From Squalus acanthias (taxonomy: Eukaryota): 64,000 bases of DNA. Location: positions 93,806,001 to 93,870,000 of the forward strand of contig CM059432.1 in NCBI GenBank assembly GCA_030390025.1. The letters are read 5' to 3'. Made by a program: the position numbers and the translations under genes. The notes under the pieces are model-generated. The model was not told the DNA's origin, searched no databases, and saw only the letters and a program-made list of their open reading frames with translations. Numbering within the stretch: position 1 is the stretch's first letter; each line of letters starts with the position of its first letter. Of this stretch, positions 44,266 to 64,000 are shown piece by piece.

Positions 44266-44391
44266 ATGATGTGGAGATGCCGGTGTTGGACTGGGGTGGA
44301 CAAATGTGAGAAGTCGCACAACACCAGGTTATAGTCCAACAGCTTTATTTGAAATCACAAGCTTTCGGAGCGCTGCTCCTTCGTCAGGTGA
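44266..44391 (-). mobile_element. Solo PLE pLTR fragment (hammerhead + downstream + tail), same family as 63261-63547
   Basis: Reverse complement is near identical to 63417-63547. Confidence 0.85.
44355..44391 (-). ncRNA. Minimal hammerhead ribozyme motif
   Basis: TCAC-CTGACGA-a-GGAGC-AGC-GCTCC-GAAA-GC-TT-GTGA. Confidence 0.75.
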
Positions 44392-46383
44392 CTTTTTAAA
44401 AAGTAACCTTTATGATAAAAAGTCAATCTTTACAAATGGACACATTACAAATCCAAACAGGAAAGATGTGAAACATTTAAAAGTTAAAATTAAAGCATTA
44501 ACATTTTAGAAGAAAATTGTACACAGGTTTAAATATTGATTAGTACAATTCCTAACATGGCATTTTCAGAATGGCAAATGCTTCAAGTTTCAGGATGGCT
44601 ATGAAGGGATATACCTGGAGATAGATGCAGTAATACTCTCCTACCCTTTTTTTAAATGCATAAAAGTAGGTAAGATAGTTCTTAGCGGGAATAAATATTT
44701 CTCTTTTTCCTCGCTTGCACTACAAGATAAAGAAAGAAGAGGGAAAGACTACCATTTATATAGTGCCTTTCACGACCACCGGATGTCCCAAAGCGTTTTA
44801 CAGCCAATGAAGTAGTGGTACTATTTTAGGAAGGTATTGGTTAGGGCAGAGGAGGGACTCAAGGCACATTGGAGAAGGAGGAATGCACTACTTCAAGCAC
44901 TTCAGGTGCCTTACCAGCAGTACTTGGGCAAGCGAACATCCACCAATAAGTCCTAATGCGCAAATATCAATTCATCAAAAGCATGAACCAATATAATACA
45001 ACTACAATAACAGTTAAGTGGAACAATATTTGAAATTGAGAGACAAATTTATCTAATTCAGAACCACAATATACATCAATTTCTTTATTACATGCTAGGA
45101 TAAGATTTTTATGCTTAGAATTTGTGTATACTCTGCAGAATTTGGTCAACTATGTTAATCAAAATACAAAATGATGTAAAACACTGTACAATGCTGTTCA
45201 CTGCAGCAGAAAGGCGTCTACCATTAATACTACTCTATTGTAAAGTGCAATGGCAGCATGTTTTAAAATGCAAGGCCGGCAGTCAGCCACTCAAAATCTA
45301 AACAAAAGATTAGGCACCATTCCAAAATGACCATGGCATTGAACTAAGGAATGCAAAAAAGCTACAAACTGTACTATACTGATCTGTTCTAAATGTACTT
45401 TGCTCAATTATGTTGTGTCTTTTAGCCAATGTTGGGCAAGGAGCCACTGCAAACAAGCTTTCAAGCTATTTTTTTTTTATACTCGGATATCCTGTATATC
45501 TCTTAATAAATAATGTACGTGGACAGCAGTGTAACAGTACATCATGGGCTGGAGGTCTTTTTAAGGTCCTCATCTTATGTTTAGCAGTGGCATTTAATTT
45601 GTCATTTCACTCATTTTAAACAAACATACTACAAAAATATTGCATTTCTGTATCTTTCGCTTCCTTCCAGCAAGATAATGCAGCTTCTAAAATTGTTATA
45701 TATTTAATGTTGAATGATCAACATTCAAACTACAAACAGGGCTTATTTGCTTCAAGTAGTGCTGCACTGTCAGCTATTTTTGTCACACAGCATCTTAAAC
45801 CGTTGACCGTCATAACGGTAAATGCCTGTTGGAGAAAGAATAAAACCAATACTAAAGTCGATCCCTTGGAAAGTAGCTGAGGAAATGGTATGAGCAGGAT
45901 ATTTTGTGTGTTCTCGATATGTGTAGAAGGCAGAGGCAATTAATCAACAGGATTAAGTGTGTTGACTTGATCCCACATTTTGTGAGCTATAGAGTTAAAT
46001 TTAATAGAACATTGATCCAAGATGATCAACTGTGAACGATCAACTACAGTTTAATTGCTATTTAGAAGAGCGCTACCTTCTTAAATAACTCCGTAATTAT
46101 AACTCTTTACAATTCTAAACGACAGTCACTTGAACAGATATAATGCTACTGTAATGAATGCAAACTCCATGCAGGTAAAGATTGCCTTTTGTAACACTTT
46201 TGAGCCTTGCTTGATCTTGATATTAGAATTTTTTTGCAACGAATTCGGACGAGTCTTTTATTTATTTGCAAACTAGTTTCACATTTTGTTAGCATTCATT
46301 TCTTTTATATATTACTGTACTTTCAGGAAGTGCTGCATACAAGTAGTGACCAAAGGAAATGCAAACCTCACTTTTGAACTTAC

Positions 46384-46536
46384 TTCACTGGGCCGGATTT
46401 TGATGTAGAAGTTATTCCTTTTGTACGAGATCTTGAGAACCTTGGGCCAGGCAAATCTGTTTATTCTCAGCCTGTCTCTGTAGATCAGCAAGCCACTGGC
46501 ACACACACCAAGCATGATATCAACTCCTTCTGAATC
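46384..46536 (-). CDS. EPB41L3: EPB41L3 exon, FERM-C ([51 protein letters not shown])
   Basis: tttacaag|GAT acceptor, GAA|gtaagt donor, 153 bp, phase 0-0. Confidence 0.96.
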
Positions 46537-59755: not shown

Positions 59756-62700
59756 CTAAATGGAAACAAACACATCGAAGCTTGAGATCTTTCAAAACCA
59801 CAGCACTTTTGGATACAATTTAAAACTGTGAACGCTTCCAAGAGTTAAGAAGTCACACCCAAGATTTTTTATAGGACTTGTACTTGAAAACACACACTCC
59901 TGGCCCAAGTTGCACTTGATAGAACTATCCCAGGATATACCATATTCAAGATTTGATTTTTTAATCGCTATAGTCCAAAAAAGAGAATAGTGATGTGCTA
60001 GTTATGATTTAAATACATGTCACTGTATCCAATTATTTTTGAACTGCCGTAACATAGACAGAGAACAAAAGAAAATCAGGGGAATCCCATTCTAGCAACT
60101 TTTTTTAAGCAGTAAATTAAAGCTATAAAAGCTGTACTTCTACGAGTATTTCCCAGTGGCTAAAAGACATTCTGTGCATTCAGTGGAGTAGTGCTGAGAA
60201 TAATGAAATCCAAAGAGTGAGCACTGAAACATCGCACCACCTTGCCCGAGAAACTATTTTAAAATAGTGACTTTGAGCAGGCCAGCCGTCACAAATTAAA
60301 AAAAAAAAATACTTTGCTTCAAAATAAGTTTATAAGAACAATTGCTACATACTTGAGAATATGGCTATAATGTCATATCTTGAGTAATTCTTTAAAAAGA
60401 TTAAAAAGGTAATCTGAAGGCACAAAATTAGAGAGCCCCAGAAAGTATATAATTAATGGACTCTCTAATCAGCTTTTTTTTTAGCTGTAATTTTATAAAT
60501 TAGAATGCATTTATGATCACTCCAAGCTACCATTTAAAATTTAATGAAACTATTGACCAATTCACTAGTCCCACACACCAGAATCTACAGGCAGGTCTCA
60601 ATTTGTCAAAAGATGTGCAGGCTTTGATTTACATGGAACATTGTCACATAGTTCTGCAGCATGCTCCACACTGATCTGCATTCACATTCATCCACAGGCA
60701 CTGTCAATGGATGTCAAGGTCAGAGCGGCCCTAAATTTTTATGCTTTGGGTTCATTACAATATACCACTCGGTACATCAACATTAGTCAAACAGATTGTT
60801 CGAATATGTATAAAGCAAGTGAGTGATGCACTCTTTGCTCAAGCAAGTAATTTCATCTCCTTCTCCATGGACATCCAACAGCAGCAGGAGGAGGAGGCTG
60901 TGCAGTTTTACAGAGTAGGAGGATTTCATAGATTGGACCCACATGGCAATATGTGCTCCCTTGAACAATACCACTTACCTGCATGAATAGCAAAGAGCTC
61001 CACCCTCAGAATGGAGTCTGAGAGTTTCCTCAAACATACGTTGCAGGAGGTGGTAACCCCACAGCTACAGAAGGTGAGGGAATGGGTGACCACCAGACAG
61101 GGTAGGAGGAAGACAGTTAGTGCAGGAATCCCCCAAGCAAATGGCACTCGCTAACCAGTTTTCAGTTTAGAATACCAGGGAGGCTAACAACTCCTTGGAA
61201 GAATGCAGTAAGAATAAAATCCCGGCACCACGAGAGATTTGACTGCACACAGGAAAAAAAAAGTAGAAATGCAGTAGTCATAGGGGTTTGATAGTTAGAG
61301 GCATAGACAAGTGTTTCTGTAACTGCAAACATGACTCCCGAATGGTATGTTGGCTCCCTGGTGCCAGGGTAAAGGATATCATCGAGTGGGTGATTTCTGA
61401 GGGTGGAGCACTTTGCTATTCATGCAGGGGAAGGGGAACAGCCAGAAGTCGTCGTCCATGTTGGAACCAATGACACAGGTAGAAAAAACGTTGAGGTCCT
61501 TCAAGCAGAGTTTCAGGAACTAGGAAAAGATGAAAAAAAACAGGACCTTAAAAAAGTAGTGATCTCAGGATTGTGACCGGTTCTGGGGCAAGGGGCACCT
61601 GTACAAGATGGATGGGTTGCACTTGAACAAAGCCGGGACCAATGTTCTCATTGAGAGGTTAACTAGTACTTTTGGAGAGGGTTTAAACTAATTTGGCAGG
61701 GGGAGGGGGAACCAGAAAGGAGCAGAAATGAGATCAGAGGACAGAAAGATACAATCTGCCGTAAAATTAGAAATATTCCAAAATTTGTAGGGACCAGATT
61801 GAGGAAAATAGCAAAAGTGACGAAGGAGGTATTAAATTGTATGTACATTAATGTCTGTAGTATAACTAGTAAGATTGGTAAGCTGCATGCACAAGTTGCT
61901 ACGTGGGATTATGACGTGTTTGCATTAACAGAGACATGGCTCAAACAAGGCCAGGAATGGATTCTTAATATTCCTGGTTACCAAGTATTCAGGAATGATA
62001 GAGAAGGAAAAATTGGAGGGGGCAAAGCATGATTAAGGATGATGTTCCAGTTTTAAATTGAAAGGATATACTAGATGGTTCTAGGAATGAATCTGTTTAG
62101 CTTGAGTTGAGGAACAGAGGGGGAAAAAACATAGTGCTAAGGGTAGGGAAGGAGAGGAATTTCTGATATGTGCACAGGAGAACTTTCTCGATCAATGTAT
62201 CTCCAGTCCAACAAGGAAGGAAGCAGTGTTGGATCTGTTTCTGGGAAATGAAGTAGGGCAAGTGGAGTGTGTTACAGTAGGAGATCATCTAGCTAACAGT
62301 GACCACAACATACTTCGGTTTAAAATAATTATGGAAAGAAACCAGAAAATATTCATAGCAAAAATGCTCAACTGGGGAAGAGCTAATTTCAGTGATTTAA
62401 GAAGGGACCTAGCACAGGTAGATTGGAAAAGGCGATTGCAGGGTAAAGCAGTAACGGAGCAATGGAGGGCATTCAGGGAAGAGATAGTTCAAGTACAAAC
62501 TAGGCATATTCCTTTGAAGGGAAAAGGTAGAGCATCCAAAGCTAATGCACCCTGGATGACAAAGGAAACAAAAGTTAAAATGAAACAGAAAAAGGAGGCT
62601 TATGACGAATGTCAGGAGCAAGATTCAGTTAATAACAAGGAAGATCGTGGAAAGTACAGGAGGGATTTTAAAAGTTAATACGGGAGGAAGAGGGGTTACG

Positions 62701-63260
62701 AGAAAAGATTAGCAGGCAATATTAAATTGAACCCTAAAACATTTTATAAACATATGAAGCGTAAGCGGTTAGCTATGGAAAAAGTTGGGCCTATTAAGGA
62801 CCCAAAGGGAACTCTTCATGTAGAGGCAGAGGACATGACTAAAGTATTAAATGAGTACTTTGCATCTGTCTTCACAAAGGAAGTGGATGATGTGAAGGTC
62901 ACACTAAAAGAGGAGAGGGAAGTTATGGACAGCATCGTAATAGATAGAGAAGCTGTACTAAAAAGATTAGCATTACTGAAAGTTGGTAAGTCAGTTGGTC
63001 CAGACGGAATGCATCCTAGGTCGCTGAAAGAAGCAAAGGCAGAAATAGCAGAAGCATTGGTCACAATCTTTCAATCCTCATTGGATACCGGAGTAATGCC
63101 GGAGGGTTGCGAATGTTATACCACTATTCAAGAAATGGGAGGGGGATGAACCAGGAAACTACAGGCCAGTCAGCCTAACTTCGGTGGAGGGAAGTTATTG
63201 GAAACCATTATCGGGGACAAAATAAACTTTCAATCGGAAAGGCATGGGTTAATCAAGGAA

Positions 63261-63547
63261 AAAATTGAGAGGTCGCACAACACCAGGTTATAGTCCAACA
63301 GTTTTATTTGAAATCACAAGCTTTCGGAGCTATCGATTGCTCCTTCCTCAGGTGAAGTAAATTAGATACAGAATCGCCAAAGCATATATATTTGGCGATT
63401 CTGTATCTAATTTACTTCACCTGAGGAAGGAGCAATCGATAGCTCCGAAAGCTTGTGATTTCAAATAAAACTGTTGGACTATAACCTGGTGTTGTGCGAC
63501 CTCTCAATTTTGTCCACCCCAGTCCAACACCGGCATCTCCGCATCAT
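63261..63547. mobile_element. Palindromic Penelope-like insertion: two inverted pLTR copies + 36-nt tail, with TSD
   Basis: Perfect inverted arms 63261-63381 and 63391-63511; tail 63512-63547; duplication taatcaaggaaa at 63250-63261 and 63547-63558; host CR1 frame (HGLIKE|SQHEFVKGKSC) restored on removal. Confidence 0.9.
63417..63458 (+). ncRNA. Minimal hammerhead ribozyme motif; mirror copy on the minus strand at 63314-63355
   Basis: TCAC-CTGAGGA-a-GGAGC-AATCGATA-GCTCC-GAAA-GC-TT-GTGA. Confidence 0.75.
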
Positions 63548-64000
63548 AATCAAGGAAAGCCAGCATGAGTTTGTTAAAGGCAAATCGTGTCCGACTAACT
63601 TGATTGAATTCTTAAATAAGGTAACAGAGAAGATTGATCAGGTAGTGCAGTAGATGTTGTATATATGAACTTTCGGAAGGCATTCAACAAAGTGCCACAG
63701 AGGAGGCTTATAACAAGATGGAAGCTCATGGAATTAAGGGGAAAGTTGCTGTATGGATAAAAAAAATTGTCTCAGTGACAGGAAGCAAAGGGGTGGTGGT
63801 GGATGAATGTTTTACAGACTGGGAGGTGGTCTGCAGTGGTGCTCCCCAAGGATCAGTTTTGGATCCATTACTCTTTGCAAATTTTATAAATGACCTAGAC
63901 ACTGGTGTAGGGAGCAGCATTATAAAATTTGCAGAGGATACAAAATTCGGCAAAGTAGTAGATAGTAATGAGGATAGTTATAGGCTTCAGTATGACAGAC

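What the first reader, a model, noticed from the sequence alone, without database searches (positions are those of the whole stretch)
63250..63558. Perfect 121-bp-arm palindrome carrying a hammerhead ribozyme on each strand, inserted with a TSD into a CR1
Seen: arms 63261-63381 and 63391-63511 are exact reverse complements around a 9-nt loop, followed by a 36-nt one-sided tail. The unit is flanked by a ~12-bp duplication (taatcaaggaaa) that splits a CR1 RT frame. Each arm holds TCAC-CTGAGGA-stem II-GAAA-GC-TT-GTGA. Established: Penelope-like elements carry minimal hammerheads in their pLTRs and often insert as inverted pLTR pairs with a short tail. Inference: this is a very recent (zero mismatches), ORF-less, ribozyme-only PLE product. 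The EPB41L3 pre-mRNA would fold here into a 121-bp perfect dsRNA (possible ADAR/Dicer substrate) that also masks the ribozyme from folding.
Basis: partly seen in the sequence, partly recalled or inferred. Interest (0 to 1): 0.72.

Follow-up and report, generated by a model that had tools for sequence, protein, structure and literature searches.

The report
Back-to-back Penelope retroelement stub
This 287-base mirror-image insert in an EPB41L3 intron is two cut-short ends of a young, very abundant Penelope-type jumping gene joined head to head, a layout already described; it was likely made when one RNA was copied from both sides of a DNA break, and its ribozyme motif is predicted to be locked inside the hairpin.

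Summary
In detail: exact 121-bp arms, 9-nt loop, 36-nt one-sided tail, 12-bp TSD, a minimal hammerhead motif per arm, inside a decayed CR1 in an EPB41L3 intron. It is not a separate ribozyme-only element. The right arm plus tail is identical (157/157) to the pLTR of a full-length copy with an intact 891-aa RT/GIY-YIG ORF. A 28-mer of the arm has 4,646 exact hits in the genome. 27 of 78 mapped loci are inverted pairs, with arms of 24 to 2,895 nt and mostly 12-14 bp TSDs. The 'loop' is native sequence of the tail-less arm. Zero mismatches is usual here (0.40% arm divergence). Inverted pLTR, tail, TSD and junction palindrome are in print (PMC3846280, PMC8557442, PMC4209133). Family data favour priming from both DNA ends on one RNA over fold-back: the tail-less arm is longer in 13 of 26 pairs, tail-only stubs exist, and both arms share haplotypes. 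The same junction arose again on another contig from another subfamily. The scan found such stubs and this reading before on other DNA. Cleavage, editing and polymorphism are untested. An ordinary locus with modest mechanistic value.

The parts
63250..63261 (+). target-site duplication, left copy (12 nt; last A shared with the element end)
   Evidence: single copy in CR1 paralogues
63261..63390 (-). tail-less (short-end) pLTR copy, 130 nt, including the 9-nt 'loop'; sense strand in the host pre-mRNA
   Evidence: 100% to L176
63382..63390 (-). 9-nt loop = native TATA-like tract of the left copy; head-to-head junction at 63390/63391
   Evidence: same junction at C9:10705428 in another subfamily
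63391..63511 (+). tail-bearing pLTR copy, 121 nt
   Evidence: 157/157 identical to the L176 upstream pLTR plus tail
63512..63547 (+). 36-nt PLE tail, ending inside the first ATG of the family ORF
63547..63558 (+). target-site duplication, right copy (first T shared with the tail)
63417..63458 (+). minimal type-I hammerhead motif: stem I UCAC/GUGA, CUGAGGA, extra A, 5-bp stem II, GAAA, palindromic AGCU, predicted cut after CUU; not on the host's transcribed strand
   Evidence: sequence, fold, family variants
63314..63355 (-). mirror hammerhead motif, sense in the host pre-mRNA, predicted to be masked by the long hairpin
61800..64000 (+). decayed CR1 LINE ORF2 region that hosts the insert (79-91% identical to paralogues in most alignments, stops and frameshifts)
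46348..46536 (-). FERM_C exon of the EPB41L3-like host gene; fixes strand and intragenic position
44266..44391 (-). solo pLTR plus tail of a related subfamily (90% identical, CUGACGA core, 3-nt loop II)

Best explanation
The insert is a doubly 5'-truncated, head-to-head insertion of a young autonomous Penelope-like retroelement, likely made by priming reverse transcription from both ends of a staggered DNA cut on one RNA. Shown: family identity, intact-ORF relatives, a 12-bp TSD, one tail end and one tail-less end. Inferred: the GIY-YIG nuclease cuts both strands about 12 nt apart; one end primes at the tail end of the RNA and the other 36-40 nt further in; both cDNAs stop in or next to the self-complementary TATATA tract; they are joined and filled in. 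The product encodes nothing. Its hammerheads are passengers of the pLTR, and the one that is sense in the host pre-mRNA is predicted to be sequestered in a 121-bp helix.
For: Identity: 4,646 exact 28-mer hits, 0 in the reversed control; 927 hits for an N-terminal ORF 28-mer; 8 of 21 long loci checked have stop-free frames of 918-921 codons (7 of the 21 were picked for having an upstream pLTR); L176 encodes RVT_1 (E 4.7e-9) and GIY-YIG (E 1.2e-4, just over cut-off). Architecture: 39 of 40 inverted pairs have exactly one tail arm; longest exact TSD 12-14 nt in 35 of 40. Two-end priming: the tail-less arm is longer by >16 nt in 13 of 26 unbiased pairs, the tail arm in 6; 8 of 42 tail-less solos carry an inverted tail piece at the 5' end, against 3 of 210 control windows, and in most the piece is tail only, sequence the other arm lacks; 24 of 42 tail-less solos have a TSD of 10 nt or more (one is a host repeat). 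One template: within-locus mismatch 0.40% against 1.41% across loci, and 8 rare variants shared by both arms in the 'tail-less longer' class; 5' ends within 16 nt in 7 of 26 pairs against 1.1 expected, p 5e-5. Hot spot: 63 palindromes centre in this 30-nt zone; by hand count 24 of the 50 listed centre on (AT)n and 4 on AGCT. Literature: the anole PLE protein cuts and extends both strands and starts RT at the two ends of the tail (PMC11167929, parts 1-2 of 4 read).
Against: No read-level confirmation of this locus. Shared variants and near-equal arm ends are also what fold-back predicts. Fold-back followed by asymmetric centre deletion could mimic unequal arms. This junction has no clean microhomology and equals the commonest perfect form minus 3 nt, so it does not discriminate alone. 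L126 and L127 look like duplicates (7 independent stub events), and L116's 7-nt stub is borderline. Rfam does not recognise the hammerhead. The sample is the first 69 Mb of one contig and needs an exact 28-mer.
Confidence: 0.75

Rival explanations
1. Same Penelope origin, but the second arm was made by fold-back (self-priming) of the first cDNA at TATATA, then trimmed at the tail-less end, with a later 3-nt loss at the apex.
For: Arkhipova et al. 2013 read junction palindromes as self-priming (PMC3846280, passages). 28 of 50 listed centres are native self-complementary words (hand count). Arms share rare variants. Near-equal ends are in excess.
Against: A copy cannot be longer than its template, yet the tail-less arm is longer in 13 of 26 pairs, by up to 2.3 kb, and by 9 nt here. 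Tail-only inverted stubs exist. Tail-less solos with TSDs show that the short end primes on its own. TATATA gives 6 bp between two cDNA ends but hardly any hairpin stem within one (inference).
Confidence: 0.17
2. A non-autonomous, ORF-less hammerhead palindrome family (MITE- or retrozyme-like) that spreads as a unit.
For: Some centres recur (the 50-nt form 11 times among 50 listed, hand count), and this exact junction occurs twice.
Against: The second copy has other subfamily variants in both arms, another target and a longer tail. Recurrent forms carry different haplotypes and TSDs. Centres and arm lengths vary continuously. Retrozymes are tandem, not inverted (bioRxiv 10.64898/2026.07.22.740005, part 1 of 5 read).
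Confidence: 0.04
3. Assembly or library fold-back artefact.
For: Perfect palindromes can be sequencing artefacts (recalled); no reads spanning this locus were found.
Against: The mirror stops exactly at the family's fixed short end, with a 12-bp TSD, a one-sided tail and non-mirrored flanks that continue the CR1 in register; dozens of loci follow the same rule.
Confidence: 0.02
4. The insert has a locus-specific regulatory role, as a dsRNA or ribozyme switch in the EPB41L3 pre-mRNA.
For: The predicted hairpin is very stable (-255 kcal/mol for 387 nt) and lies in a transcribed intron.
Against: It is young, sits in a dead CR1, matches the family majority at every compared base and is one of many. 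Stem II pairing probability is below 1e-6 in context. Metazoan minimal hammerheads showed no cleavage as monomers (PMC4209133, parts 1-2 of 4 read).
Confidence: 0.02

Closest known systems
Insertion unit of endonuclease-bearing Penelope-like elements (Adineta Pen2a, PMC3846280 passages; PMC8557442 passages and Fig. 2 legend)
   Same: Inverted 5'-truncated pLTR, 30-40 nt tail on one end only, TSD, TATATA tract upstream of a TCAC-type initiator, palindrome at the head-to-head junction.
   Different: Both arms are cut to pLTR length, so no ORF remains; the TSD is 12-14 nt here against 8-10 in the Adineta examples read; copy number is in the thousands.
[quoted passage not shown]
   Same: Short stem I, extra base between 9 and 10.1, G10.1-C11.1, palindromic 15.2-16.2; that paper already notes dual motifs about 100-700 bp apart on opposite strands.
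   Different: Stem II is 5 bp with an 8-nt loop; N7 is G and the cut triplet CUU; the two motifs here are about 60 nt apart; activity untested.
Poseidon PAc of Anolis carolinensis (Frangieh et al. 2024, PMC11167929, parts 1-2 of 4)
   Same: Two RT start sites bracketing the tail; both strands cut and extended; a hammerhead in the pLTR.
   Different: This family has a CX4CxxC linker (Neptune/Nematis type) and its first ATG lies at the tail end, not in stem II; the parts read give no model for inverted pairs.
Metazoan non-LTR retrozymes (bioRxiv 10.64898/2026.07.22.740005, part 1 of 5)
   Same: ORF-less, pLTR-derived, hammerhead-bearing.
   Different: Retrozymes are head-to-tail tandems with at least two same-strand hammerheads; this unit is head to head and has one per strand.

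Membership tests
EN+ Penelope-like elements | Single ORF with RT and C-terminal GIY-YIG endonuclease in the parent family | tested here: met
   L176, 891 aa: RVT_1 E 4.7e-9, GIY-YIG E 1.2e-4; its pLTR is identical to the window arm plus tail
EN+ Penelope-like elements | pLTRs from partial tandems, with inverted truncated copies | tested here: met
   direct pLTRs about 3.1 kb apart, tandem in L173; 27 of 78 mapped loci are inverted pairs
EN+ Penelope-like elements | 30-40 nt tail at one end only | tested here: met
   36 nt here; 39 of 40 pairs have exactly one tail arm
EN+ Penelope-like elements | [quoted passage not shown] | tested here: met
   ADKGG and VVYLIRCRKECTAAWYIG; motif definitions from PMC8557442 passages
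Neptune/Nematis clades | CX2-5CxxC linker before the endonuclease | tested here: met
   CHGKLCKTC; definition
Neptune/Nematis clades | Placement on an RT tree | not tested
   no reference PLE sequences were fetched
Minimal type-I hammerhead | Core CUGANGA...GAAA, stems I and II, NUH triplet | tested here: met
   across family copies N7 and loop II vary while the core is kept; z -1.6 against shuffles is weak alone
Minimal type-I hammerhead | Match to an Rfam hammerhead model | tested here: not met
   no hit at E<=5; minimal motifs lack a stable stem III, so this is weak evidence
Minimal type-I hammerhead | Self-cleavage | not testable with these tools
   needs an in vitro assay
Non-LTR retrozyme | Head-to-tail tandem with two or more same-strand hammerheads | tested here: not met
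   one motif per strand
Non-autonomous family (MITE-like) | Many copies of the same unit from one founder | tested here: not met
   junction occurs twice, from different subfamilies; centres vary

The most novel reading that the evidence does not exclude
The locus is a clean witness of a PLE rule not found in the papers searched: one enzyme dimer copies one RNA twice, from the two tail-defined start sites, onto the two ends of a 12-nt staggered cut, and the two cDNA ends are joined at sequence-directed points, so reproducibly that the same junction arose twice from different subfamilies. This would explain the inverted pLTR, the one-sided tail and the junction palindrome together, and replace the self-priming reading.
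Probability: 0.55. Interest if true: 0.45.

Novelty: new member of a known kind. Interest (0 to 1): 0.2.

Why it matters
The locus itself is likely neutral debris. The family matters more: it is young, keeps intact ORFs and has thousands of near-identical copies, so it lets one test how PLE inverted structures form, a question PMC8557442 calls undefined. An estimated thousand or more inverted pairs (extrapolated from 27 of 78 loci) would also be a genome-wide source of long dsRNA when they fall in introns. No RNA evidence for that was obtained.

Tried and rejected
DNA search of the own genome with the 157-nt arm returned nothing because common words are skipped; exact patterns were used instead. 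Rfam gave no hammerhead. Sequencing runs: no RNA holder listed; best share of words 0.32. Laying Logan contigs was swamped by family copies; no listed piece bridged the CR1 flank and the insert or showed the empty site, so polymorphism, editing and read support remain open. Pfam missed GIY-YIG on the whole protein and found it on the C-terminal 152 aa. L040's 858-codon frame is chimeric: it starts in the inverted arm. Dropped before counts: L137 (no 3'-end alignment), second unrelated family copies in L089 and L101, L143 (perfect palindrome returned as one alignment); L037 (both ends 21 nt short, no tail) counts as a pair but not in the 26. Paper searches for a two-end priming model in PLEs listed none that states it by title or abstract start; for shark Neptune elements none. 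Most subscription papers are not in the library and no supplements were read. No tree, structure or complex job was run.

Full report
Observation. The arms 63261-63381 and 63391-63511 are exact reverse complements around GCATATATA, with a 36-nt tail and a 12-nt direct repeat. The repeat is a true TSD: 13 loci carry the uninterrupted site, and in 6 of the 12 fetched the left and right flanks align with a 12-nt overlap. The host is a CR1 ORF2 remnant, mostly 79-91% identical to these paralogues and already broken. The surrounding gene is on the minus strand: FERM_N exon at C8:93,897,251, FERM_C exon at window 46348-46536, 4.1 CTD exons at C8:93,794,356-93,799,827. The FERM_C exon best matches human Band 4.1-like 3 in PDB. 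The insert lies between FERM_N and FERM_C inside the CR1, so it is intronic (inference; the exons between were not mapped). The organism is called shark-like in earlier notes; I did not test that.

Family. A 28-mer of the arm has 4,646 exact hits, with 0 in the control; an N-terminal ORF 28-mer has 927. Of 21 long loci checked, 8 have stop-free frames of 918-921 codons (7 of the 21 were chosen for having an upstream pLTR). The upstream pLTR plus tail of L176 is identical to window 63391-63547. L176 encodes 891 aa with RT, DKG, a CX4CxxC linker and GIY-YIG, which fits the Neptune/Nematis type by the motif definition in PMC8557442 (passages); no tree was built. The tail ends inside the first ATG of that frame. 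The 'loop' is the next 9 native bases of the left, tail-less copy. So the insert is a 130-nt tail-less copy joined head to head to a 121+36-nt tailed copy.

How common. I fetched all 79 loci behind the first 100 listed hits; 78 mapped, 27 as inverted pairs and 51 as single arms. Arms run from 24 to 2,895 nt. Adding the window and 12 short palindromes gives 40 pairs: 39 have exactly one tail arm and 35 have a longest exact TSD of 12-14 nt. 63 palindromes centre in the same 30-nt zone; of the 50 listed, 24 centre on (AT)n and 4 on AGCT (hand count). Extrapolation suggests over a thousand inverted pairs genome-wide (estimate). Arms differ by 0.40% within loci; 7 of the 16 other near-equal pairs with arms under 200 nt have no mismatch, and 71 of 124 arms match the family majority over the last ~117 nt. 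Zero mismatches therefore marks a young family, not an unusually young copy.

Not a separate element. The exact junction occurs at one other place. That copy has different variants in both arms, a different target and a longer tail, so it arose independently. Other recurrent centres also carry different haplotypes and TSDs.

Mechanism. For two-end priming: the tail-less arm is longer by more than 16 nt in 13 of 26 unbiased pairs and the tail arm in 6. A fold-back copy cannot exceed its template, and a copy of a tail-less arm cannot gain a tail. 8 of 42 tail-less solos have an inverted tail piece at their 5' end, against 3 of 210 control windows (two look like duplicates, one is borderline, one is a 52-nt arm). 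24 of 42 tail-less solos have a TSD of 10 nt or more (one is a host repeat), so the short end primes alone. For one template: mismatch is 0.40% within loci against 1.41% across, with 8 rare shared variants in the 'tail-less longer' class, and arm ends lie within 16 nt in 7 of 26 pairs against 1.1 expected. This matches the anole PLE biochemistry, where both strands are cut and extended and RT starts at the two ends of the tail (PMC11167929, parts 1-2 of 4). Against: shared variants and equal ends also fit fold-back, the reading of Arkhipova et al. 2013 (passages); later centre deletions could make arms unequal; and this junction equals the commonest perfect form minus 3 nt, so it does not decide alone. 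Cutting, priming and joining are inferred, not shown.

Ribozyme. The motif has the features listed for minimal PLE hammerheads (PMC4209133, parts 1-2 of 4). Across family copies N7 and loop II vary while the core is kept. Rfam does not score it, and its fold alone is weak (z -1.6). On the host's transcribed strand only the left motif is sense, and it is made after its complement. In that context the hairpin is predicted at -255 kcal/mol and stem II pairing at below 1e-6. Minimal motifs showed no monomer cleavage and low dimer cleavage in that paper, and the anole motif needed protein. Cleavage of the host pre-mRNA here is unlikely (inference). Reads gave no verdict on editing or polymorphism (see Tried and rejected).

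Known versus new. Inverted pLTR, tail, TSD, TATATA and junction palindromes are described, as are hammerhead pairs on opposite strands. I found no paper stating the two-end, one-RNA model (open-access library only, supplements not read). Earlier notes of this scan describe several such stubs and the same model on other DNA; they are unchecked AI notes, and I tested the model on my own sample. Verdict: real, a new member of a known kind, interest 0.2.

Noticed in passing
window 44266-44391 (-): Solo pLTR plus tail of a related subfamily that starts exactly at the TCAC before the hammerhead core; sense in the host pre-mRNA, in another intron.
   Followed up: partly
L192 (G000:C9:10704900-10706000), 416-704: Independent insertion with the identical head-to-head junction and the same polarity, from another subfamily.
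   Followed up: yes
window 60978-61011 and 61395-61428: 34-nt inverted repeat (97%) 383 nt apart in the CR1 5' region; possibly a local inversion or repair scar.
   Followed up: no
L037 (G000:C1:22685225-22689340): Inverted pair whose arms both stop 21 nt short of the usual end and continue as about 100 nt of mirrored foreign sequence; no tail, no TSD found.
   Followed up: no
L046, L047, L104, L110, L112, L116, L125, L145, L150 and others: Many copies sit at the same few positions of other repeats (a recurring CCTCTATTTAT-type target); flanks often show CATGG or CTGGC before and GCCA after the TSD, as in the window.
   Followed up: no
L086, L096, L101, L102, L109, L113, L118, L132: 5' ends of single arms cluster 119-132 nt from the short end, at the TATATA tract, where full-length L160 also begins.
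   Followed up: partly
L173 (G000:C1:223719000-223728999): Inverted copy followed by a tandem of two stop-free 921-codon frames and three pLTRs; a candidate source locus of a subfamily with a shorter loop II.
   Followed up: no
L048 junction; C3:191007529; C4:25614869: Junctions with short inserts copied from nearby arm sequence, typical of end-joining repair.
   Followed up: no
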